Positions 9,601-49,122 of a DNA stretch of 64,000 nucleotides are shown here, in pieces. Each line of letters opens with the position of its first letter. The first letter of the stretch is position 1. Source of the DNA: a virus. The notes under the pieces are model-generated. The model saw nothing but the letters and a program-made list of their open reading frames with translations. It did no database searches and was not told the DNA's origin. The position numbers and the translations under genes are program-made. The stretch lies in the IMG/VR virus record IMGVR_UViG_3300028840_003497, positions 96,001-160,000 of that record; one strand, given 5' to 3'.

Positions 9601-12204
9601 TCAGAACGGCACTTCCTCACTATCCTCGTACTCATCCGTGTCGTCAGGGATCTCGTCATATTTCATCGAGTCGAAATCCCAGTCAGACAAAACCACATCT
9701 TTCGAAATCTGTCCTCGTCGGAGCTTGAGAGCTTTGAATTTCAAAACCTTGTCATCCCTGTCATCCTTCGACTGCTCCAACGCAAAGACAGCATGAGCAT
9801 CCTGGCCAATCTCGTCAGCAAGCGCAATCGTTCCCAGACGAGCACCTCCCCCTTTTTTCTCGCTCAACTCCGCTGTTCTGTTCTGTTGGGCAAATCCACA
9901 ACAAGCAAATCCAAGCCGTTTAGCAGCACTCTTCATCCACTCCAGAGCACCAATTGCTCTCTCTCGCCTGTCGCCACTGATTTTCAGATCATAGATAGAG
10001 TCTACGGCGACCATATCTGGCTGACACGCACGGATAGCTGCTTCGATGCCTTTTGGTGAAAGATCATCATCAGAATCCATGATCCACAGGTTCTTCAACG
10101 AGCGACTTTTTACAATAGTATTCTCAAGACTTGGAATAGCGAAATCCGATAACTGCCCATGAATAAGATCCTTGTAACTGACGTTCGCTTCGACCACGAA
10201 GAACCTCTCAGCAATCTCCTCTTTGCTCATCTCCGGAGACACGATGAGCGTACGATAACCTTCGGACCATGCGTGCCGGGCGGCAATAACCGCCACGAAT
10301 GTGTTGTGAACAACCATATCATTTGCCACGAACGCATGCCCATCCATAACCGTTAAATCGAACACCCTTTGGACACCGTCATATTTTATCGATTCAACTC
10401 TATCCCAATGATTAACTGTCAAATGTCTCAAGTGTTCTGCGTCAAACGCATCCAGGAAAGCTTCAAATATTCTTCTACTTACAGTTTTTCGTCTATACAA
10501 CTTATTAACGCTGATTCGAGTTGTCATACCTAAGACTGACGACATCGAATCATACCTAGCAACTCTTGGAGCATCAGGAAAACTATTCACTATTCTAAGC
10601 AACTCTTCCTTCAATACAGGTGTCACCGGTATATTGTCAATATTGGGATTAGTAGCATTCTCAAGCAACCCAACCTTGCTGCTTTTACCACCGACTATCG
10701 GGATATTGTTTTTGAACGCATCGTGGGATGTCGAGTAGATCCTGTACACCCAAGAATCAAACATCTCCCCGTTTAGCCTGACTGCTTTATACCGCACTCT
10801 CCCCTGTATCCCGAAGCGCAAGAACAATCGCTGCAACTGATCAATAAGCGTTTTAGATGCCAATCCCACTTCAGCAGTACAATGATCACGTCTGCCATTC
10901 TTGCCCTTGACAAGTGGAAATGACCCATCACAACTCCAAAATGCCCCGAGAAATTTCGCCAATGACTCATTATCATACTGAAATACTCTGTCTGGAATAG
11001 TCTTATTTTTAGACAATGATCTATCACACCCCCAACTATCCCACTTTTCCCAAAAGCTACGACCATTAATCCTGTAACGACCATCATCCTTTCCACGCGT
11101 CATCGGAACAAGTTCACTACCATATATTCGACAAAACCTTTGCACATGACCTATAATTACATTGTCAGCTTTTGTGAAGGTTGGTAGATCTTGCGTCACC
11201 CCACCATCTGCCAACATCATACCTATCAGCATGGATTCTTCATCTCTTACACTAATAGATTCAGTTGGCTCTGGAATCAATCCAGCAGACTCAACATAAT
11301 CTCCAACAACAAGTTCATCGGTTCTTTTCCATCCGTCAACAGTCATCATCGGATGCTCTGGCGTTTGAGACATCTCACGCCCACTATACAATCCAACCCT
11401 TAAACATTCCTTTGTTCCCATATCCAACCACGCATCTGGCGTAACAGGAACAATAGAGCCATCTGATTTTCTGGTAAGCACACAATCTTTGTCCTTTACA
11501 ATCTGTCCAATCGTCTTATACTTCCCCGTAGTTGAAATGTAGGATAATGTATCCATGTGTAGGCATTTGCCAACTCCGGGGCGGGCCACAAACATGGTCA
11601 GTGTCTTTGGCCACATCCCAGCTGTCATATGATCCAGTGTCGGCCATGGAAGCGGCACCCCACGATACCCTCCGGCAACCTTCTTGTACATATCCATTAC
11701 GCCGTCACCAAGAGCGGACATGGATTTTGGCATGCGCGTGCGCGCTAAATATTGGGAAGCCTCCACAATGGCCGTGACACCATTGGAAATCTCTTCCGGA
11801 TTCTCCTTTGTAAACGCGCTGGAAACCACATCCTGAGACACGTAGATGACATGACGAATCGCAGCAGCCTCACGAACAATTCCAGCGTAATGATCAACAT
11901 TAGCCACCGTGGCAACTGCATCAGTAAGATTCGCCAGAGCTATCCCCCCCCCGATCTTCTCTAGGTCGCCATTCTTTTTCAGGCGCTCCCCGAGAGTAAC
12001 GTGATCGACAGGCATGCCATCTGCATCCAAGGATGTCATCGCCTTGAAGATTCTGCGATGTGCTTCTACATAAAAATCCGCCTGCGTAATAACACCCTCG
12101 ATAACCCGAAGTGAATTATTATCCAGCAATATGGACCCCAGAACAGACACCTCGGCTTCATAATTGTAAGGCGGCACTCTCCCTCCAACATCAACCTCTT
12201 TCAA
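9601..12204 (-). CDS. dnaB: Replicative DNA helicase with intein
   Basis: N-terminal PPYNYEAEVSVLGSIL...DFYVEAHRRIF; ARPGVGK|T Walker A; SPEMS; IGQDA. Confidence 0.93.
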   Translation of the reverse strand: MKEVDVGGRVPPYNYEAEVSVLGSILLDNNSLRVIEGVITQADFYVEAHRRIFKAMTSLDADGMPVDHVTLGERLKKNGDLEKIGGGIALANLTDAVATVANVDHYAGIVREAAAIRHVIYVSQDVVSSAFTKENPEEISNGVTAIVEASQYLARTRMPKSMSALGDGVMDMYKKVAGGYRGVPLPWPTLDHMTAGMWPKTLTMFVARPGVGKCLHMDTLSYISTTGKYKTIGQIVKDKDCVLTRKSDGSIVPVTPDAWLDMGTKECLRVGLYSGREMSQTPEHPMMTVDGWKRTDELVVGDYVESAGLIPEPTESISVRDEESMLIGMMLADGGVTQDLPTFTKADNVIIGHVQRFCRIYGSELVPMTRGKDDGRYRINGRSFWEKWDSWGCDRSLSKNKTIPDRVFQYDNESLAKFLGAFWSCDGSFPLVKGKNGRRDHCTAEVGLASKTLIDQLQRLFLRFGIQGRVRYKAVRLNGEMFDSWVYRIYSTSHDAFKNNIPIVGGKSSKVGLLENATNPNIDNIPVTPVLKEELLRIVNSFPDAPRVARYDSMSSVLGMTTRISVNKLYRRKTVSRRIFEAFLDAFDAEHLRHLTVNHWDRVESIKYDGVQRVFDLTVMDGHAFVANDMVVHNTFVAVIAARHAWSEGYRTLIVSPEMSKEEIAERFFVVEANVSYKDLIHGQLSDFAIPSLENTIVKSRSLKNLWIMDSDDDLSPKGIEAAIRACQPDMVAVDSIYDLKISGDRRERAIGALEWMKSAAKRLGFACCGFAQQNRTAELSEKKGGGARLGTIALADEIGQDAHAVFALEQSKDDRDDKVLKFKALKLRRGQISKDVVLSDWDFDSMKYDEIPDDTDEYEDSEEVPF
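10303..11565 (-). mobile_element. Intein (421 aa) with LAGLIDADG endonuclease in the DnaB P-loop
   Basis: Starts CLHMDT, TPEHP block B, IGMMLADG/LGAFWSCDG, ends VVHN|T. Confidence 0.92.
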
Positions 12205-21018: not shown

Positions 21019-21367
21019 ATTGCTTCTTTGTGAATCGCCCGATGTGACAATCGCTCTCCGTCATCCGCATATGAGATTGCAACTTACGATACGCTCCCCC
21101 GCGCGAGAGGTTCCCTGTCTTCCATAAAGCATCGAACCAACGATGCAATTCCCTCCTGGCATCGCGAGTTTCCTTATTAGCCGGAATCCCCAGCGGAGAT
21201 CCGTCAGGATGACACCCGTGGAAACACTTGCATTTAGGAAAGTTGTCACAGCTATAAAAACGTCCACTCCTCATGTCAACAAGATGCATCTGCCCACCGC
21301 ACTGTGGACACTCCAATACCGTCTCGCCATCATTCGACTCACCAGTAAACGCATTAACTATCCTCAT
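20936..21367 (-). CDS. DUF3268-like zinc-finger protein
   Basis: CPQCG...C...C..GCHP...PLG.PAN...H..FD.LW...CHIG.F...QC. Confidence 0.8.
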   Translation of the reverse strand: MRIVNAFTGESNDGETVLECPQCGGQMHLVDMRSGRFYSCDNFPKCKCFHGCHPDGSPLGIPANKETRDARRELHRWFDALWKTGNLSRGGAYRKLQSHMRMTESDCHIGRFTKKQCERAIIFAKGSCKIYGIDPEDAVDKSV

Positions 21368-23046
21368 TAATTTCTCATCGACAGCTTGAATAACTGACTA
21401 CCGCGTGCAAACAAGACCTCATTTCCACGTTTAAACAGACGCATATCGCCTCCTATCATCGGATCCGAGATGCGCTTCACACCGTCTACTGTCGGCGTCG
21501 CCCCGAAGAGTACCAGATCCTCCACCTCGTCGATATGAGCACAGACCCCCTTGTCCAGGGTCACGAAGTTGATCCCGGAGTAGGCGACGTCCTCGTCCTT
21601 CCAAAACAGGATCGCATTCACGTAATCGCGCTCGAAACGATAGACAAACTTGTCGTACTGGCCGTTCTTCGTACCGATCACAATCATCACCCGGTGATCA
21701 TGTTTGGCATCAACAATCCGGTACCCGTCCAACTCTTTTAGCCGAACCTGATTACACATCTGCGATCCAGGAAACACCGAGGCATACCAGGATCCCAGCA
21801 TGTTTTGGATCGCCACTCCATCAAACAGTTGTGTTGCCATCGGCATCACATTCGCCACAGGATGTGGGAAGACCTGCGTGTTATTCCCGACCTTCCTGAT
21901 CATCAACTCGATCACGTTCTCGTCGTAATGAATGTAAAAACGGCCATCGTAGGCCATCATTGATTGACAGGGCGCACGTTGCCCCACAGGGAGCAGCGTC
22001 TTTGCATTGACCAAGTATGCCTCCCCACCTTCACGTCGCCCGTACAAGGGATCCTGATCGCTCGTGTGGCCGAAACATCCGTCCCCCTGGATGGAGAACG
22101 GTGTCCCTCGATCCTTCGTGAGGCACACGACAGACCCGTCCATCGCAATAAGGTCGAACCCATCAATCCTATCGTATCGAAAGATATTCCGTTCGAGGCC
22201 GAACACCTCGGATATCTTGAGTCGGTCCGTACTCGAAATATTTCGAGGAGCTACAAAGACCACCCCCAATCCTAAACCCTTCGGCGGAGGCACCCGACGA
22301 CCATCCTCGAACACTGCCTTATACCAGCGCCTGTACGCCTCCGGGATCGTCTCGAAGCTCGGGACCATCTTCGGGACCTTCACGTCGTCGTTGAACACCG
22401 AGAGGTTCTGCAGCATCCGATCTGCCATCTTCTTCACCGACGGGTGCTTGCCCTTAAACGGATGAATCCCGGTGAACAACTGAAATGTCACAATGCCCCA
22501 GGAAAACCAGTCGGTCTCCCGCGTCCAACTCTTGGCCTGCCAGTCCCGGATGCTGTCCATGATCGCCGTCGCCGGATAACTCTTAGTCTGATAACTATCG
22601 ACATCGATCCAGAAAACATCGCTCCCTTTCAGAAGCAGATTCATCTCGTTCAAATCGACCACTAGAACATCGGCGGAGTGGATCCCCTCTAATCCGTCCT
22701 GCATATCGCGGACGATACCGAACACATCGTCGGGGCCGATTCCATTCCTCTTCTTGTACGCCTTCGTGAATAACTGACAAATGGGGGACGCATCCTTCAC
22801 AAATCTCATCGAATATCCAACCGGTTTGTTGCGTGAATCCAATAGCACATTGAGAGGCTTTATGACGTTCTTGTTTCTGATCTTCGACAACTCCTCGATT
22901 TTTTGCTCTGGGATCATTTTTTTTGGGTTTGCATAGATCTTGTATGCCGTGCTGCCACGGACATACACACTACCTTCGCCACCCGAACCCACAAAATCAC
23001 GCTTCGACAGACTAACCTGACCGCCCCCCAGGATCTTGATTTTCAT
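21367..23046 (-). CDS. Ser/Thr protein kinase (TerY-P triad type)
   Basis: GSGGEGSVY, AYKIY, DLNEMN, IDVDSYQ, TDWFS, GIHPFKG. Confidence 0.9.
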   Translation of the reverse strand: MKIKILGGGQVSLSKRDFVGSGGEGSVYVRGSTAYKIYANPKKMIPEQKIEELSKIRNKNVIKPLNVLLDSRNKPVGYSMRFVKDASPICQLFTKAYKKRNGIGPDDVFGIVRDMQDGLEGIHSADVLVVDLNEMNLLLKGSDVFWIDVDSYQTKSYPATAIMDSIRDWQAKSWTRETDWFSWGIVTFQLFTGIHPFKGKHPSVKKMADRMLQNLSVFNDDVKVPKMVPSFETIPEAYRRWYKAVFEDGRRVPPPKGLGLGVVFVAPRNISSTDRLKISEVFGLERNIFRYDRIDGFDLIAMDGSVVCLTKDRGTPFSIQGDGCFGHTSDQDPLYGRREGGEAYLVNAKTLLPVGQRAPCQSMMAYDGRFYIHYDENVIELMIRKVGNNTQVFPHPVANVMPMATQLFDGVAIQNMLGSWYASVFPGSQMCNQVRLKELDGYRIVDAKHDHRVMIVIGTKNGQYDKFVYRFERDYVNAILFWKDEDVAYSGINFVTLDKGVCAHIDEVEDLVLFGATPTVDGVKRISDPMIGGDMRLFKRGNEVLFARGSQLFKLSMRN

Positions 23047-37418: not shown

Positions 37419-37967
37419 TCACTCCCAAGGGCAATCCACCTGTTTCACCCAGTCATTCCTCTGCAGATCCCATTGCAAACTTGCCGTCCCGAGGAAAGTA
37501 GGACTCCCTCCCGGAGCAACAGATGCCGGGTCCATATCCATGAATTCTTTATACATGCCTTCGCATCGCTGTAGGTATGTTGCCATAAATTCCGAGCAAA
37601 ACAACTCACCTTTTTTGTGTAGCGGATTCACAATCCTTCTTCCAAATACACGCCACATGTAAAGCTTAGCCAAGAACCCAGCAACGCCATCCCAATCGTA
37701 CTTATCTCCAACGAGATACCTGACACGAGACATGCCACTGGCCAGGTCCAACTTGAAGAAATCGTAGCACTCCACGTAGCTGTACTCGACTCGCTCAGCC
37801 GGGATCTTTACGACACCGCGTTCGTCAACCTGGACCGCCCACCAACCACCCCATTCACCCGAGGTATACGCTAGGAACGCGTGGTTTACATTGCTGCGAG
37901 TAATCTTCCGGATCGCCTTTCCGTACCACTTGTCAGAAGCTGACAAACATACAAGAACTTTGCTCAT
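37419..37967 (-). CDS. Permuted papain-like amidase (YiiX/YebB-like NlpC/P60)
   Basis: N-terminal NHA, GDKYDW, C-terminal FCSE. Confidence 0.75.
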   Translation of the reverse strand: MSKVLVCLSASDKWYGKAIRKITRSNVNHAFLAYTSGEWGGWWAVQVDERGVVKIPAERVEYSYVECYDFFKLDLASGMSRVRYLVGDKYDWDGVAGFLAKLYMWRVFGRRIVNPLHKKGELFCSEFMATYLQRCEGMYKEFMDMDPASVAPGGSPTFLGTASLQWDLQRNDWVKQVDCPWE

Positions 37968-37968
37968 T

Positions 37969-38187
37969 CTATTCCTCCTGGTTGATCGCCTTCAGAAGAG
38001 CCTGATAAGCGATATTGAAGTTCTTGTGACGAGCTACTTGGCCTCCAATATAGTCGTCACAGATCTCCATTTTACCAGTTGGAATATGGGTAAGTCTAAC
38101 GAAACAACTCTCGTCACAAAGATTACTCGAAGGGCGACACCATTCGATCTTCAGATCCTTATCTGGAATACGCTCAGACGAGATCAT
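37969..38187 (-). CDS. Peptide release factor domain-3-like miniprotein lacking the canonical GGQ loop
   Basis: IPDKDLKIEW.R...VRLTHIPTG...C......HKN...A...L; SD GGAGG. Confidence 0.6.
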   Translation of the reverse strand: MISSERIPDKDLKIEWCRPSSNLCDESCFVRLTHIPTGKMEICDDYIGGQVARHKNFNIAYQALLKAINQEE

Positions 38188-42186: not shown

Positions 42187-43194
42187 TTAGCGGTTGATTC
42201 TCAGCTGCGTTGTCAGTTGCGACCACGCGTACAATTCGCGCATAGCAAATTTCTCCAGATCGGACCATGGCGTCCCCCGGACCTCAGTCGCCTCGTATGC
42301 AGCCCGAGCCTCTTCCTTCAGTTGCTCGGCCCACTCCTCGATCTCGGCTGCCGAGTACTTGCCCTGCTTCACATCGAGAATCTCCTGCGCGTAGGTCAGC
42401 GGGAACTTCAACTCGCCAGTCTCCATCAGTTCCTTGCCGCTCATCAGGAGGTGGATCAGGTTCGACGCGAACTTCGTGTCGTAGCCAAACCGCGTAAAAA
42501 GGACCACCCGGCTCGTCGCATTGTCCAGCCGGTGCCGGATCATCTTCTTGGCCTTCTTTACGGACACCCCGCGCTCAAAGGAGAGGTCGCCGCATCTGAC
42601 GTGCTTGCCTTTGCCCTCCCAGGTAAACGGTGGATGCTTCCCCTCATTGGTGCCGATCTCGACAGGGTCGATCAGCATGACAATCTCGGCCATGACTCGA
42701 TGTTCGTCCTCCTTGTCCAGGATCTCTAGCCCTCGCAGAAGGTCCTTATAGTTCGCGGGCTTGATCCGCATCTTGTGAAGCTGGGCATCAGCATAAGCAA
42801 CGAATCGTCGGTACGCACCCTTGTGGACGATCTTGTCCTTCAGGGCCAGCATCCGGTCCGCAAACCCATGCTCGTCCCGGAACAGGATGTTCTCCTCATT
42901 CACAAAGATCGTGTGGATAAAGTTCGGGTTATTCTCCATCACGGTCTTCACGAACTTTCGATAGTCGTGGATCTTATAGTCGATCGCATCCTTCGTGTTG
43001 CGCCCGGTGTCGTCCTTGTCCACCTTCCCCAGATCGACCTCATCGCACCGCTGAAACCCGAAGATCGTCTCGTCCGGCGGCATAAAAATCCCAAAATAAT
43101 CCTCGTCGCTGTCGGGAGTGCTCGTGCCAAAAAGGTGAGATCCCACCCGTATTTTCAGAATCGCGTTGTCCTGTGCCCATTTGCTGAAGTCCAT
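42187..43194 (-). CDS. Pol-beta superfamily nucleotidyltransferase (RNA-repair-associated type)
   Basis: VGSHLFGTSTPDSDEDYFGIF, NNPN, GYDTKFA. Confidence 0.85.
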   Translation of the reverse strand: MDFSKWAQDNAILKIRVGSHLFGTSTPDSDEDYFGIFMPPDETIFGFQRCDEVDLGKVDKDDTGRNTKDAIDYKIHDYRKFVKTVMENNPNFIHTIFVNEENILFRDEHGFADRMLALKDKIVHKGAYRRFVAYADAQLHKMRIKPANYKDLLRGLEILDKEDEHRVMAEIVMLIDPVEIGTNEGKHPPFTWEGKGKHVRCGDLSFERGVSVKKAKKMIRHRLDNATSRVVLFTRFGYDTKFASNLIHLLMSGKELMETGELKFPLTYAQEILDVKQGKYSAAEIEEWAEQLKEEARAAYEATEVRGTPWSDLEKFAMRELYAWSQLTTQLRINR

Positions 43195-44136: not shown

Positions 44137-45594
44137 ATGAAAAACACTGACGAACAACAGGCCATCATCAACTCAACACCGTCCACTGGGGGATCGCTTC
44201 TAGTCACGGCCTTCGCCGGTACCGGGAAGACCTTCACCCTCCAGAAGTACGCGGAGGAGCGTCCTGCGGACAAGATTCTATACGCCGCGTTCAATAAAGC
44301 GATCCAACTGGAAGCCGAGCGGAAAATGCCGATGAACGTGACCAGCAGGACAACGCACTCACTGGCCTATCGCGCGTGCGCGCTACCCTATCAGAAGGCC
44401 GGGCTCCTGCGCGGATACATCCCGCTATGGGGAGTTGCCAAAATACTGGAGACCAACATCGTGATCGCAAACTTCGCGCTCTCCGTAGTCAATAACTTCA
44501 TCGCATCGCCAGATCCGAAGATCACAAGCGCCCACATCGGGCAGGAGATCCACGATTACTACGAACAGGCTGATCACATGCCACCATTTGTAGAGATGGC
44601 GAGAATGATCTGGGACGACATGAAGAGCCTTGGCCAGCGAAGTCTCCCGATGACACACGACGGGTACCTGAAACTCTTCCAGCTCTCCGGCCCCGATCTA
44701 CGCTTCGACTACATCCTGCTCGACGAGGCCCAGGACACCACGCCATGCGTCTGGGATATTATGACCAACCAGAGCTGCCGGAAAATAGTCGTGGGCGATG
44801 AACACCAAGCGATCTACTCCTGGCGAGGTGCCACTGATGCCTTGAAACTCGTCGAAGATGCCGAACACCTTTATCTCACCCAGAGCTTTCGATTCGGACC
44901 CGAGATCGCAGCACTGGCCACCACCATGCTGCAGCGATTCAGAGGAGAGAAAAACAAACTCCTTGGATTGGAGTCGATCCCTACAAAGATCCATACAGGA
45001 GGCCGCCCGGAGAAAAGAACCATGATCTGCCGGGGCAACATGCAAATATTCCGATCCTCCGCCACCGAGTGCCAATTTGGAGAGAAGAGTCTGGGTTTCG
45101 TAGGAGGAGACCACCGTAATTACCGCTTCCAGACCGTACTCGACGCTTACCACGTCTTCGATGATCAGCCCGAAATGGCCAAGGATGCACTCATCAAATC
45201 CTTCGAGACATTCGAAGATCTCCTGGAGTTTGCTGGCAAAACCAAGAACAATGAATTAGAAGGAGCCTGCCAACTGGTAGAAGAGTACGGTGCAAGGATC
45301 CCCATCATATTCCACGAAGTAAAGAATAGAGACGTTGGTGCTAAGTTTGGAGACCTAGCGTTTGCCACCGGCCACAAGGCCAAGGGGATGGAATTCCCGG
45401 TCGTCGAAATTGGATCAGACTTCAGCGCCCGGATCGAGGCCCACCAGAAGAACCCGAAAGAGGGCATCATGAATTCCCACGAGATGAACCTGCTATACGT
45501 AGCCATCACCAGGGCCACAGAGCACCTATACCTCTCACCCAGTATTGTGGACTTCATTCAGCACGGAACCATCAAAAAGGAGGGACAGCTATGA
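44137..45594 (+). CDS. UvrD/Rep-family (SF1) helicase
   Basis: AFAGTGKT, TTHSLA, LLDEAQD, VGDEHQAIY, SFRFG, HKAKGMEF, YVAITRA. Confidence 0.93.
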   Translation: MKNTDEQQAIINSTPSTGGSLLVTAFAGTGKTFTLQKYAEERPADKILYAAFNKAIQLEAERKMPMNVTSRTTHSLAYRACALPYQKAGLLRGYIPLWGVAKILETNIVIANFALSVVNNFIASPDPKITSAHIGQEIHDYYEQADHMPPFVEMARMIWDDMKSLGQRSLPMTHDGYLKLFQLSGPDLRFDYILLDEAQDTTPCVWDIMTNQSCRKIVVGDEHQAIYSWRGATDALKLVEDAEHLYLTQSFRFGPEIAALATTMLQRFRGEKNKLLGLESIPTKIHTGGRPEKRTMICRGNMQIFRSSATECQFGEKSLGFVGGDHRNYRFQTVLDAYHVFDDQPEMAKDALIKSFETFEDLLEFAGKTKNNELEGACQLVEEYGARIPIIFHEVKNRDVGAKFGDLAFATGHKAKGMEFPVVEIGSDFSARIEAHQKNPKEGIMNSHEMNLLYVAITRATEHLYLSPSIVDFIQHGTIKKEGQL

Positions 45595-45884
45595 GTGCAG
45601 ACAACTGGGCGCTTTGCCCACGGTGCAAAGAGAGGGACATCGAGAGACTCCGCACTGCGGTCGAGATGGTCAAGAAATCGTACGGCAAAGTCCCCGAGGA
45701 AGAGTACATGCAGATGAAGGAGGATCTCGCCAAGGCAGATCCGGGAAACGCCACCGACCCCACACTGCGCGAGGACTACGAAATCGGAATCGGGAAGGAC
45801 GGAATGTTCTCGATAACCTTCCGGGCAAGCTGCAAATGCGGCTTCAGGTTCACGTTCTCGTTCAAGGAGAAGGTGTTAACATGA
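45591..45884 (+). CDS. Small zinc-binding protein
   Basis: CPRC...CKCG; ATGA overlap with the helicase stop. Confidence 0.7.
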   Translation: MSADNWALCPRCKERDIERLRTAVEMVKKSYGKVPEEEYMQMKEDLAKADPGNATDPTLREDYEIGIGKDGMFSITFRASCKCGFRFTFSFKEKVLT

Positions 45885-45963
45885 AAACTTGATATGATTC
45901 GCCTTTAGAGCGATCATGTCTTTAGATGCGGCGCAAGATGCGTCACTGTTGAAAGGATGCAAG

Positions 45964-46647
45964 ATGTACAGAGTAAATGTAGAGTTGAACGGTTGCACGG
46001 ATGTTGGAGGCAGCGACCTCCTGATGCATAACGACAATTTGACGTGGCGGGATGAAATGGATTTGTGGTTACAAGAACCCTTAAACAAGAATTCCAGCAG
46101 GGCCGGGGATGATCGTTCTCCAGCATGGCGCTGGCTCGGTTACTGCTACCACGACGGCGAAGTCGTAGGAATCCCAAGCGACAACCTGATGACCTGTATG
46201 CGGGGCGGAGCAACAATGATCAACGTCCCAGGCAAAGGCAAGAAGACATATAAAGCTCAGAGCCAGAGCGGACTCTTGGTTAACGAGATTCTGTGGCCAA
46301 TCACAGTCAATGACGGCCAGATCATCAAATGGGAAGATATTGCTTCCTTGGCAAATGAAGAGGACTTTAATAAACACGTTGCCCGCGCCAACGAGCTAGG
46401 GATCGAATTGTTCGTCAAATCGGTGAGGATCGGGCAGTCCAAGAACATTCGAGTGCGCCCGAGGTTCAAAAACTGGAAAGCGAAAGGATCAATAACGGTC
46501 CTGGACGACACCATCACAATCGATCTATTGAAACGATTTCTGGAATGTTCTGGAATGTTATGCGGACTCTGCGATTGGAGACCGTCATCGCCGAGATCAC
46601 CTGGACCGTTCGGAAAATTCGTCGCCACGGTTACGAAGGCTAAATAG
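45964..46647 (+). CDS. RAMP/Cas7-like protein associated with the GGY-NN array
   Basis: N-terminal strand ending LLMH, IPSDNL..CMRGGA (compare the RAMP IPGSSLKG..R motif), RVRPRF, terminal Gly-rich loop GMLCGLCDWRP...GPFGKF. Fold inferred, not searched. Confidence 0.65.
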   Translation: MYRVNVELNGCTDVGGSDLLMHNDNLTWRDEMDLWLQEPLNKNSSRAGDDRSPAWRWLGYCYHDGEVVGIPSDNLMTCMRGGATMINVPGKGKKTYKAQSQSGLLVNEILWPITVNDGQIIKWEDIASLANEEDFNKHVARANELGIELFVKSVRIGQSKNIRVRPRFKNWKAKGSITVLDDTITIDLLKRFLECSGMLCGLCDWRPSSPRSPGPFGKFVATVTKAK

Positions 46648-46657
46648 GTAGACGCAT

Positions 46658-46973
46658 GGATCTGGGTAAGGCTAGGCCAGGCTTGGCGTGGCATGGCAAG
46701 GCGAGGATCGTGGCAAGGCGAGGCATGGCGCGGCAAGGCGAGGCGCGGCGAGGAACGTGGCAAGGCGAGGCATGGCAAGGCGGGGCTGGGCAAGGCGAGG
46801 ATCGTGGTAAGGCTAGGCGTGGCTTGGCAAGGCTGGGCATGGCGAGGAACAGGGTAAGGTGTGGCAAGGCAAGGCGGGGCAAGGCATGGCGAGGAACATG
46901 GCAAGGCAAGGCAAGGCGCGGCATGGATCGTGGTAAGGCAAGGCTAGGCGTGGCCGGGCAAGGCGAGGAACGT
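46658..46973 (+). repeat. Phased GGY-NN pentamer array: 7 units delimited by GGAWC-NN
   Basis: Delimiters at 46658, 46705, 46752, 46799, 46846, 46893, 46925, 46967; units hold 8,8,8,8,8,5,7 pentamers. Confidence 0.95.
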
Positions 46974-47015
46974 GGAAAACATCATGGAGTACAACAGTAT
47001 CAACGGAGGAGTACA

Positions 47016-47501
47016 ATGAACGAAAACAAGAAAGATGGCCTGTTTTTCGGAGGAGTCCCCACCGATGGAGACATCCGTCTCCTGGAAAATGAGTACGGAA
47101 TTCCTGAAATCGGCAAGATTATACCCTACGAGGAGGTGGCTGCCGTCATCAAGTATGACAAGGATTCGTCACGGTTTAAAACAGTGACACAGCGCTGGCG
47201 AAAGAAGATCGAGCGCGACCACAACGTCATCATTGGCACCGAACGCGGGATCGGTTTTGTCGCACTCGACAACGCCTCTCGTGTTGATCTGGGATCCGAC
47301 AAATTCAAATACGGCATGAAATCTGTTCGACGCGCGAACAAGGTCGTCTCTTCAACCGACCACTCAGATCTTACTGATGATCAAGTTCAAGTCGCCCACC
47401 ACGTACGACACGTCACCGCCGCACTGGTCGGAGCGGCCAGAATGGAGTCGAAAAAACTTCGGGCTCAACTTCCCATGCCTGTCCAGCAGAACAGAAAGTA
47501 G
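47016..47501 (+). CDS. Hypothetical accessory protein downstream of the array
   Basis: ATG 47016 behind SD GGAGGAG; 161 aa, basic. Confidence 0.75.
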   Translation: MNENKKDGLFFGGVPTDGDIRLLENEYGIPEIGKIIPYEEVAAVIKYDKDSSRFKTVTQRWRKKIERDHNVIIGTERGIGFVALDNASRVDLGSDKFKYGMKSVRRANKVVSSTDHSDLTDDQVQVAHHVRHVTAALVGAARMESKKLRAQLPMPVQQNRK

Positions 47502-48201: not shown

Positions 48202-48302
48202 GATATTAACTCCTTTTGAAATGGCGTCTTTTTTAGAACAATAAAGGAGCTTTTATAAAAGTCAACACAATAACGGCGCTAATCTCGCCATTTCCAAGAT
48301 AG

Positions 48303-48389
48303 TGGGCCGGGAAGGATTCGAACCTCCGAAGGGACTAGCCCGCCGGATTTACAATCCGGTGCCTTTGAACCGCTTGGCGATACCGACCC
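48303..48389 (-). tRNA. tRNA-Tyr (GTA)
   Basis: CCGGA-TTGTAAA-TCCGG; long variable arm. Confidence 0.9.
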
Positions 48390-48390
48390 A

Positions 48391-48482
48391 TGGTGCGCGG
48401 GGCGGGATTCGAACCCGCCCTGTCTCTGAAGTGTTACCCCGGGGCCTGAACCCGGTGCCTTTACCAGCTTGGCTACCCGCGC
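48391..48482 (-). tRNA. tRNA-Leu (CAG)
   Basis: CCGGG-TTCAGGC-CCCGG; long variable region; CCA encoded. Confidence 0.88.
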
Positions 48483-48483
48483 A

Positions 48484-48557
48484 TGGTGATCCCGACTGGA
48501 GTCGACCCAGTGTCTCCGGCTCTTCAAGCCAGCGCTAAACCCCTCAGCTACAAGACC
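48484..48557 (-). tRNA. tRNA-Phe (GAA)
   Basis: CTGGC-TTGAAGA-GCCGG; atypical T-loop GTCGACT; CCA encoded. Confidence 0.8.
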
Positions 48558-48558
48558 A

Positions 48559-48641
48559 TGGACGGATCGAAGCACATCTGCGCATTTTACATTGCCGTCG
48601 AACTGAATCGTCGGTTGCTGCCGTGTGAAATCCGATCCGTC
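48559..48641 (-). ncRNA. Candidate 83-nt small RNA within the tRNA cluster
   Basis: Terminal stem GACGGATCGG/TCGATCCGTC, sequence ends in CCA; no cloverleaf. Confidence 0.45.
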
Positions 48642-48644
48642 TTG

Positions 48645-48718
48645 TGCGCGAGCTGGGAGTCGAACCCAGAACCACAGACCCCTCAAGCCTGCTCCTCTTC
48701 CAGTTGGGATACTCGCGC
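48645..48718 (-). tRNA. tRNA-Leu (GAG), short variable loop
   Basis: CAGGC-TTGAGGG-GTCTG. Confidence 0.85.
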
Positions 48719-48724
48719 ATATAT

Positions 48725-48797
48725 TACGACTGAGTGGATTCGAACCACCAACTTTCGGTTCTTGAAACCGACGCCTCTTCCGTTGGGCCACAGTCGC
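48725..48797 (-). tRNA. tRNA-Leu (CAA), short variable loop
   Basis: TCGGT-TTCAAGA-ACCGA. Confidence 0.88.
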
Positions 48798-48798
48798 T

Positions 48799-48874
48799 TG
48801 GTGCGCCCCCTCGGATTCGAACCGAGCCTGAACCGGGCTTAAACCGGATCCCTCTTCCACTGGGGTAGGGGCGC
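48799..48874 (-). tRNA. tRNA-Leu (TAA), short variable loop
   Basis: CCGG-TTTAAGC-CCGG; CCA encoded. Confidence 0.85.
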
Positions 48875-48880
48875 ATATAG

Positions 48881-48956
48881 CAAGTGCGGAAGGATTCGAA
48901 CCTTCAACCTTTGGATTTGGAATCCAACGCTCTGACCAAATTGGAGCCACGCACCC
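48881..48956 (-). tRNA. tRNA-Trp (CCA)
   Basis: TTGGA-TTCCAAA-TCCAA. Confidence 0.9.
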
Positions 48957-48961
48957 ATAAG

Positions 48962-49045
48962 CGGAGGTAGAAAGATTCGAACTTTCAAGCCAGTTTCCCG
49001 ACCACAGTTTAGCAAACTGCTGCGTTACCATTACGCTATACCTCC
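48962..49045 (-). tRNA. tRNA-Ser (GCT)
   Basis: GCAGT-TTGCTAA-ACTGT; long variable arm; G73. Confidence 0.9.
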
Positions 49046-49049
49046 CTTG

Positions 49050-49122
49050 AGTCTCGGGCCGGGTTCGAACCGGCGTCCTTCTTGGGTTGCAACCAAGTGC
49101 CTCGCCTCTTGGCTACCGAGAC
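49050..49122 (-). tRNA. tRNA-Cys (GCA)
   Basis: CTTGG-TTGCAAC-CCAAG; U73. Confidence 0.9.

What the first reader, a model, noticed from the sequence alone, without database searches (positions are those of the whole stretch)
45964..47501. RAMP/Cas7-like gene + phased GGY-NN array + accessory gene: candidate non-CRISPR programmable RNA-guided system
Seen: 10 nt after the stop of a 227-aa gene, an array (46658-46973) begins that parses with no indels into 7-nt delimiters GGA(A/T)C-NN and 52 pentamers GG(C/T)-NN. Units 1-5 are exactly 47 nt, unit 6 is 32 nt and unit 7 is 42 nt. NN strings: U1 AA TA CA TT GT AT AA GA; U2 AA GA AT GC AA GA GC GA; U3 AA GA AT AA GG TG AA GA; U4 AA TA GT TT AA TG AT GA; U5 AA GT AA AA GG AA AT GA; U6 AA AA AA GC AT; U7 AA AA TA GT CG AA GA. 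The first NN is always AA and the last is GA in 6 of 7 units, while the middle differs in every unit. Variation confined to fixed positions is unlike microsatellite slippage. Knowledge: RAMP/Cas7 proteins polymerise along guide RNA with a fixed step and end in a Gly-rich loop, and this protein has such motifs. Inference: each unit is a guide RNA, one subunit binds each GGY, and the dispersed NN pairs spell a non-contiguous target code, possibly against competing phages or host genes. No cas1/cas2 or CRISPR array is in the window. I recall phage RAMP + GGY/NN loci being described recently under the name VIPR, but I cannot verify that here.
Basis: partly seen in the sequence, partly recalled or inferred. 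Interest (0 to 1): 0.97.

Follow-up and report, generated by a model that had tools for sequence, protein, structure and literature searches.

The report
Phage VIPR guide-RNA silencing system
This uncultivated 176-kb phage carries a complete VIPR system, a CRISPR-related RNA-guided DNA-silencing system first described in 2026 preprints, so it is a new example of a known kind, with an unusually compact, tail-less guide array.

Summary
Ten bases after a 227-aa gene lie seven units built from 52 in-register GGY-NN pentamers. Eight 7-nt GGAWC-NN delimiters bracket them (46658-46973), and a 161-aa gene follows.

- **Protein:** it matches the solved SUSP1 Vipr (E 1.8e-8). It keeps the residues that hold the two guanines and folds as a Cas7-type RAMP (pLDDT 97; Csm3 Z 10.8).
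- **Downstream gene:** it is a distant vap1 homologue.
- **Relatives:** among 100 related loci, 97 carry same-strand GGY-NN arrays and 87 a vap homologue. Loci with identical Vipr proteins carry different NN strings.
- **Delimiter:** the 7-nt junction recurs 136 times in 80 viral relatives. The paper text I could read does not describe it, and I could not see the figures.
- **Targets:** none was found. Exact 1-nt-skip matches in viral contigs were no more frequent than for a permuted control, and there was no self-targeting.

Expression and processing are untested. This scan has already noted VIPR loci in at least 72 other genomes.

Verdict: a real, new member of a known kind, of modest interest.

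The parts
45964..46647 (+). vipr gene: a 227-aa single-RRM RAMP protein, the guide-RNA-binding filament subunit
   Evidence: phmmer matches PDB 36pp 'SUSP1 Vipr protein' at E 1.8e-8. PHROG phrog_4652 matches at E 2e-17, the same family as Felixounavirus wV8 gp95. AlphaFold2 with 115 sequences gives pLDDT 97.4. The best PDB folds are all Cas7/Csm3/Cmr4, at Z 10.8. H22, R165, C200, D204, W205 and R206 align with SUSP1 H17, R138, C173, D177, W178 and R179. Homologues begin at about residue 12-15, which favours the 45964 start over 45916.
46658..46973 (+). vrRNA array: seven tail-less guide units (8, 8, 8, 8, 8, 5 and 7 GGY-NN pentamers), each bracketed by a 7-nt GGAWC-NN delimiter
   Evidence: Parse. 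Periods 5 and 47. The same junction occurs 136 times in 80 related viral loci, with consensus GGC-RA | GGAAC-RN | GGY-NN. The motif also precedes the first unit and follows the last unit of such arrays. No Rfam family matches.
46658..46664 (+). First delimiter, GGATCTG. The others are at 46705, 46752, 46799, 46846, 46893, 46925 and 46967.
   Evidence: It carries a purine at the position that is a pyrimidine in every guide pentamer, plus two extra bases that shift the 5-nt register.
47016..47501 (+). vap gene: a 161-aa accessory protein, a distant member of the vap1 family
   Evidence: phrog_5926 matches at E 7e-5, and the same PHROG matches wV8 gp94 at 7e-76. hhalign of 49 clade members against wV8 gp94 gives probability 88% and E 3e-6 over 101 columns. 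A homologue lies next to vipr in 87 of 100 related loci. There is a GGAGG ribosome-binding site 6 nt upstream of the ATG.
45889..45917 (+). Weak sigma-70-like promoter match upstream of vipr (TTGATA-17-GATCAT)
   Evidence: 9 of 12 matches, no more sites than in shuffled sequence. This is a candidate only.

Best explanation
The locus is a VIPR (Viral Interference Programmable Repeat) system of a lytic-type, uncultivated 176-kb phage. It has three parts in one + strand unit: vipr, a vrRNA array and a vap1-like gene.

By analogy with the characterised SUSP1 and P. fulva systems, the array is transcribed and Vipr protomers polymerise on it, one per pentamer. Each GGY is flipped into protein pockets and each NN is presented for pairing. 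The filament then pairs with double-stranded DNA that reads NN-x-NN-x..., skipping one target base per pentamer, and blocks transcription there. Vap assists.

Each of the seven units would specify a 15-24-bp footprint, that is 10-16 read bases. The NN composition fits mRNA-sense codon positions 1-2, so the skipped base would fall on the wobble position of a protein-coding target.

My own inference concerns the delimiter. This array has no long 3' tail or pseudoknot. Its 7-nt GGAWC-NN delimiter places a purine where the published pocket excludes purines and shifts the register by two bases. I propose that it ends one filament and starts the next, dividing one transcript into seven independent guides. 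Whether the RNA is also cut there is not known.

The targets are unknown. A competing phage, satellite or prophage of the unknown host is the most likely kind.
For: - **Family membership:** direct sequence match to the solved SUSP1 Vipr. Full-length 25% identity to the Felixounavirus Vipr. The residues the cryo-EM paper names for G1/G2 recognition and the Y pocket are conserved. The Cas7-type fold is modelled with high confidence.
- **Conserved module:** 97 of 100 related loci have same-strand GGY-NN arrays and 87 of 100 have a vap homologue. The arrays sit before vipr, between vipr and vap, or after vap.
- **Guide-like variation:** loci with 99-100% identical Vipr proteins share none of their 4-7 NN strings, for example L039, L041 and L042.
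- **Delimiter:** 136 junctions share one consensus, and the motif brackets the arrays at both ends.
- **Codon fit:** NN dinucleotides fit sense codon positions 1-2, at +19.7 bits for all 52 and +10.1 bits for the inner 38. The same model is the best for 148 of 318 guides from relatives.
- **No self-targeting** under the 1-nt-skip rule, as the paper reports for its systems.
- **Mechanism** is taken from the papers.
Against: - Nothing here shows transcription, processing or binding.
- No natural target was found. Exact 1-nt-skip matches in IMG/VR gave 33 to at least 54 independent families per unit, against 57 for a permuted control, with no convergence between units.
- The units are short, 5-8 pentamers against 9-16 in the characterised systems. 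The first NN (AA) and last NN (GA) are nearly constant, so only about 12 bases per unit may be free.
- The delimiter-as-filament-stop idea rests on a structural statement about a 25%-identical homologue.
- One reading frame through the array is open and in frame with vap.
Confidence: 0.9

Rival explanations
1. The array is translated. ORF 46656-47501 would give Vap a Gly/Arg/Lys/Ala-rich N-terminal extension of about 120 aa, and the 5-nt pattern would be a by-product.
For: One of the three frames through the array has no stop codon and is in frame with the vap ATG. Permuting the pentamers leaves the vap frame open in only 5.5% of trials.
Against: - The period is 5 and unit lengths differ by multiples of 5, not 3.
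- Some frame stays open in 17% of permutations.
- Vap homologues are 141-186 aa in all but one locus (214 aa) and start at the position of the 47016 ATG. In many loci vap directly follows vipr, and the array lies elsewhere.
- Eight of 73 arrays in relatives have stops in all three frames.
- vap has its own GGAGG ribosome-binding site, whereas the ATG at 46656 has a poor one.
Confidence: 0.03
2. The array is one long vrRNA or scaffold rather than seven guides. The GGAWC-NN motifs would be tolerated irregularities inside a single filament of about 60 protomers that reads one long composite target or none.
For: No processing signal, ribozyme or terminator is detectable inside the array. The paper notes frequent internal degeneracy of vrRNAs.
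Against: The junction has a fixed consensus over 136 occurrences and also brackets the first and last units. The 2-nt register shift would break the 5:3 guide-to-target geometry described by cryo-EM. Unit lengths in relatives cluster at 7-12 pentamers, like single published guides.
Confidence: 0.05
3. The array is a decaying or orphan repeat tract such as a slippage-prone microsatellite, and the neighbouring genes work without it.
For: No target was found for any unit. The NN set is low in diversity: AA makes up 19 of 52.
Against: All 52 pentamers keep GGY with no indel. Variation is confined to the NN positions. The gene-array linkage is near-universal in the family. The NN composition is codon-like rather than random.
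Confidence: 0.02

Closest known systems
Type II VIPR systems of Escherichia phage SUSP1 and the Pseudomonas fulva prophage (bioRxiv 10.64898/2026.04.26.720920; structures in 10.64898/2026.04.26.720927; infection biology in 10.64898/2026.10.15.759431)
   Same: A lone Vipr RAMP protein of the same PHROG family, with the same guanine-binding residues. A vap1-family accessory gene. Canonical GGY/NN repeats on the same strand. Phage-encoded. No cas genes and no CRISPR array.
   Different: - Only about 25% protein identity.
- The array lies between vipr and vap.
- Guides have 5-8 pentamers rather than 9-16.
- There is no ~40-nt 3' tail or pseudoknot. Units are instead separated by a 7-nt GGAWC-NN delimiter. 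For contrast, one search shows the tails in Felixounavirus wV8.
- Host and targets are unknown.
Staggered vrRNA arrays (fig. S18 legend of 10.64898/2026.04.26.720920); probable example Mycobacterium phage BobaPhett
   Same: Both are tail-less, head-to-tail arrays in which a break in the 5-nt register marks the border between guides.
   Different: The published legend describes a 1-nt overlap. In BobaPhett the slip is -1, a 4-nt unit. Here the border is a conserved 7-nt motif that shifts the register by +2. I could not see the figure, so I cannot tell whether this form is also drawn there.
Class 1 CRISPR Cas7 backbone (Csm3/Cmr4/Csf2) with crRNA
   Same: The same RRM + G-loop + thumb fold (Z 8-11). 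One subunit binds per fixed step of the guide, and the thumb interrupts guide-target pairing periodically.
   Different: The step is 5 nt with three bases withdrawn, rather than 6 nt with one. There are no Cas5, Cas6, Cas10 or Cas1/2 partners. The guides are genome-encoded repeats, not acquired spacers. Sequence identity is about 10-15%.

Membership tests
VIPR system | Vipr protein: sequence homology to characterised Vipr proteins | tested here: met
   PDB 36pp SUSP1 Vipr, E 1.8e-8. phrog_4652 is shared with the wV8 Vipr. BLASTP E 2e-16 over residues 15-223.
VIPR system | Single-RRM RAMP fold with G-loop and thumb | tested here: met
   The model has pLDDT 97.4 and pTM 0.91. The top structural matches are Csm3, Cmr4, Cas7-11 and type VII/IV Cas7, at Z up to 10.8 with 153 residues aligned at 3.3 A.
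VIPR system | Residues that hold G1, G2 and the Y pocket (SUSP1 H17, R138, C173, D177, W178, R179) | tested here: met
   They align with H22, R165, C200, D204, W205 and R206. H22, R165, D204 and R206 are invariant or nearly invariant in 115 clade members, and W205 is invariant in the 16 closest. The residue roles come from the paper.
VIPR system | Adjacent same-strand tandem GGY/NN (YNNGG) repeats, at least four units, with conserved GGY and variable NN | tested here: met
   52 pentamers. 97 of 100 related loci have such arrays. NN strings differ between loci with identical Vipr proteins.
VIPR system | Minimal locus without cas genes or a CRISPR array | tested here: met
   No Cas1 in the 176-kb genome, with positive controls ringing. 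No CRISPR-like repeats in the window. Only vipr and vap are conserved neighbours.
VIPR system | vrRNAs are expressed and co-purify with Vipr | not testable with these tools
No RNA data were available.
VIPR system | DNA targeting by the 1-nt-skip rule, with identifiable natural targets | tested here: inconclusive
   There is no self-target. Exact matches in IMG/VR are at the level of a permuted control. The NN composition does fit codon positions 1-2 with the skip at wobble.
VIPR type II (vap1-associated) | vap1-family accessory gene | tested here: met
   phrog_5926 at E 7e-5. hhalign against wV8 gp94 gives probability 88% and E 3e-6. Plain BLASTP finds nothing, so the relationship is distant.
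VIPR type II (vap1-associated) | vrRNA of 9-16 repeats followed by a conserved ~40-nt 3' tail (a pseudoknot in the SUSP1 clade) | tested here: not met
   Units of 5-8 pentamers are separated by only 7 nt. The wV8 arrays show the tails. The type therefore cannot be assigned from the text available.
VIPR type II (vap1-associated) | Placement in the type II clade of the published Vipr phylogeny | not tested
   The paper's trees, tables and accession lists are not held.

The most novel reading that the evidence does not exclude
A large, mostly environmental Vipr clade (749 clusters at 50% identity) may use a guide-array grammar that has not been described. It has no structured 3' tail. Instead, a conserved 7-nt punctuation mark (GGC-RA | GGAAC-RN) ends one Vipr filament, by placing a purine in the pyrimidine pocket, and shifts the register by two bases. 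One transcript would then carry many independent short guides, possibly without any RNA cleavage. If so, guide boundaries would be set by filament assembly rather than by a processing nuclease. That would be a simpler biogenesis route than any CRISPR or published VIPR system, and a compact way to multiplex programmable repressors.
Probability: 0.3. Interest if true: 0.55.

Novelty: new member of a known kind. Interest (0 to 1): 0.3.

Why it matters
VIPR is a very recent discovery, and only type II systems from E. coli and Pseudomonas phages have been studied at the bench. This locus places a complete system in a large uncultivated phage. It belongs to a clade found in viral contigs and in MAGs of many phyla. 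Its compact array is a natural example of seven guides packed into 316 nt with 7-nt separators. That bears on how vrRNA boundaries are defined and on how small a multiplexed VIPR guide cassette can be. It does not change the picture of what VIPR is.

Tried and rejected
- **Single-sequence structure prediction** was useless (pLDDT 31.7). The alignment-based model replaced it.
- **Pfam** finds nothing for vipr or vap. **Rfam** finds nothing for the array.
- **Target search, local:**
  - Own genome under 0-3-nt skip rules: only the array itself at skip 3, and nothing above shuffles at skip 1.
  - 274 guides from relatives against this phage: the same as shuffled guides.
  - This array against 100 related VIPR loci: nothing above shuffles.
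- **Target search, IMG/VR exact scans:** U1 gave 110 stretches in 52 families, U4 68 in 49, U2 more than 117 in at least 54, U3 47 in 33, and U5 more than 117 in at least 39. A permuted-U1 control gave 91 in 57. Hits lie in unrelated viruses of 24-65% GC.
  - A tempting U1 match to KYQFVIND in a 970-aa ORF of AT-rich marine viral contigs, which I guessed (untested) to be a podovirus tail protein, is no more than the control yields.
  - U6 (10 read bases) was too short to scan.
- **Host:** not inferable. The nearest phage record is an uncultured 485-kb phage at 30% identity over one protein.
- **Helicase as accessory gene:** the UvrD-like gene upstream is absent from all 80 related viral loci.
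- **Vap function:** the PDB profile search and the protein atlas gave nothing usable.
- **Vipr-Vap complex prediction:** no verdict. It is not used as evidence either way.
- **RNA fold of the array:** z = -3.8. The pairs come from the GGC periodicity and not from a discrete element.

Full report
**1. The observation**

- A 227-aa gene (45964-46647, + strand) ends with TAG.
- Ten bases later, at 46658, an array begins that parses without any indel. It has eight 7-nt delimiters, GGA(A/T)C-NN, and 52 pentamers, GG(C/T)-NN. They form seven units of 47, 47, 47, 47, 47, 32 and 42 nt and end with a delimiter at 46967-46973.
- The first NN of every unit is AA. The last is GA in six of seven units.
- With this window's composition, 52 GGY triplets in register have a probability near 1e-86.
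- Tandem Repeats Finder reports periods of 5 and 47.
- It is the only such array in the genome.
- A 161-aa gene with a GGAGG ribosome-binding site follows at 47016-47501.

**2. Where it lies**

The window is bases 96001-160000 of a 176,267-bp IMG/VR virus record that has direct terminal repeats and is rated complete.
- The genome carries tRNAs and a tmRNA-like gene and a DnaB gene with an intein.
- It has no close cultured relative, so the host is unknown.
- Most genes are on the - strand. The block 44137-47501 (UvrD-like helicase, a 97-aa ORF, then the three elements of interest) is on the + strand.

**3. The protein is a Vipr**

- phmmer against PDB sequences gives one hit, 36pp 'SUSP1 Vipr protein', at E 1.8e-8.
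- The protein belongs to phrog_4652, the PHROG of the Felixounavirus wV8 Vipr (E 1e-96). It aligns with that protein over residues 15-223 at 25% identity.
- The cryo-EM preprint names SUSP1 H17 and D177 (G1), R138 and W178 (G2), and C173 and R179 (Y pocket). These align with H22, D204, R165, W205, C200 and R206 here. H22, D204, R165 and R206 are invariant or nearly so among 115 clade members, and W205 is invariant among the 16 closest.
- With that alignment, AlphaFold2 gives pLDDT 97.4 and pTM 0.91.
- Foldseek and VIA-align both return only Cas7-family chains at the top: Csm3, Cmr4, Cas7-11, type VII and type IV Cas7, at Z up to 10.8.
- The family is large, with 749 clusters at 50% identity. 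It occurs in viral contigs and in MAGs of many phyla.

**4. The accessory gene is a distant vap1**

- The 161-aa protein matches phrog_5926 at E 7e-5. The Felixounavirus gene that follows vipr matches the same PHROG at 7e-76.
- A profile of 49 clade members aligns with that gene at hhalign probability 88% and E 3e-6. Plain BLASTP does not detect the relationship.
- In SUSP1, vap1 is needed alongside vipr during natural infection.
- A homologue sits beside vipr in 87 of 100 related loci. The upstream helicase is not linked to vipr.

**5. The array behaves as a guide array**

- Among 100 related loci (80 viral, 20 genomic), 97 carry GGY-NN arrays, essentially always on the vipr strand. They lie before vipr, between vipr and vap, or after vap.
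- Loci whose Vipr proteins are 99-100% identical often share no NN string at all. L039, L041 and L042 are an example, with 5-7 guides each and none shared.
- That is the signature of a programmable, fast-turning-over guide, as the discovery paper reports for its clades.

**6. The delimiter**

This array differs from the characterised type II systems. In those, each vrRNA ends in a structured tail of about 40 nt (the wV8 locus).
- Here the units are separated by only 7 nt.
- The same junction occurs 136 times in the 80 viral relatives, with consensus GGC-RA | GGAAC-RN | GGY-NN.
- The motif also precedes the first unit and follows the last unit of such arrays. Units bounded by it hold mostly 7-12 pentamers.
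- Some relatives use variants such as GGAATNT or GGGACNN, or longer spacers.
- The paper's text mentions type II arrays, 'staggered' arrays with a 1-nt overlap, ribozyme-interspersed arrays and single vrRNAs. It does not contain the string GGAAC. Its figures and tables are not available to me.
- Mycobacterium phage BobaPhett shows what I take to be the staggered form, a -1 slip.

My inference is as follows. The cryo-EM paper says the Y pocket sterically excludes purines. The junction pentamer GGA-WC has a purine at that position, and the two extra bases break the 5-nt register. The junction should therefore end one filament and let the next begin. This is inference, not a result.

**7. Not a coding sequence**

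One frame through the array is open and in frame with vap.
- Permuting the pentamers leaves some frame open 17% of the time, and the vap frame open 5.5% of the time.
- Against translation: the period is 5. All but one vap homologue are 141-186 aa (one is 214 aa), and they start at the same position. In many loci vap directly follows vipr. Eight arrays in relatives are closed in all three frames.

**8. Targets**

I applied the published 1-nt-skip rule.
- There is no self-target.
- Relatives' guides do not hit this phage above shuffles.
- This array does not hit related VIPR loci.
- Exact scans of IMG/VR for U1-U5 gave 33 to at least 54 independent families each, against 57 for a permuted control. 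Hits were in unrelated viruses and did not converge between units.
- The NN dinucleotides do fit mRNA-sense codon positions 1-2 better than any other phase or strand. The score is +19.7 bits, or +10.1 bits without the terminal NN. The same holds for the clade: it is the best model for 148 of 318 guides, or 110 of 318 without the terminal NN.
- The targets are therefore probably protein-coding genes read with the skip at wobble, as published. Which genes they are remains unknown.

**9. Comparison and verdict**

The locus meets every sequence-level criterion for VIPR membership.
- Its accessory gene points to the vap1-associated type II.
- Its array does not have the type II tail, so I do not assign a type.
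- Expression, processing and binding are untested.
- This scan has already noted VIPR loci in at least 72 other genomes.
The punctuated, tail-less array is the only part that may add something new.

Noticed in passing
L083:2502-2753 (Mycobacterium phage BobaPhett NC_051636.1, about 37847-38098): A GGC-NN array with 4-nt (-1) register slips lies upstream of gp52, a 248-aa phrog_4652 Vipr (E 3.8e-58), next to the repressor, Rha and excisionase genes. Part of the array is annotated as the CDS gp51. About 21 related mycobacteriophages gave the same blastn hit.
   Followed up: partly
window 44137-45884 (+): A UvrD-like helicase (485 aa) overlaps by ATGA a 97-aa ORF with Cys pairs (CPRC...CKCG). Both are co-oriented with vipr in a + strand island among - strand genes. 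The helicase is not linked to vipr in 80 relatives.
   Followed up: partly
window 46656-47501 (+): An open reading frame runs through the whole array in frame with vap. The permutation P is 0.055 for that frame and 0.17 for any frame. Another agent of this scan noted a stop-free frame in a different VIPR array.
   Followed up: yes
window 48302-49122 (-), 45-119, 319-693 and 1606-1678: A cluster of nine tRNA genes lies just downstream of the KilA-N gene. There are also two further tRNAs and a tmRNA-like gene with an atypical tag peptide.
   Followed up: no
window 9601-12204 (-), 21367-23046 (-) and 42187-43194 (-): A DnaB helicase interrupted by an intein with a LAGLIDADG domain, a protein-kinase-like gene, and an RlaP-like nucleotidyltransferase of the RNA-repair pathway.
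   Followed up: no
L002:3650-3930 and L039:4150-4480: Within the same Vipr clade the separators between units vary. Some are 7-nt GGAAC-RN, some are GGAATNT preceded by GAGCGA, and in the closest relative (55% identity) they are spacers of about 20-28 nt containing GGGYCC-CAATGG. This suggests a series running from tailed to tail-less guides.
   Followed up: partly
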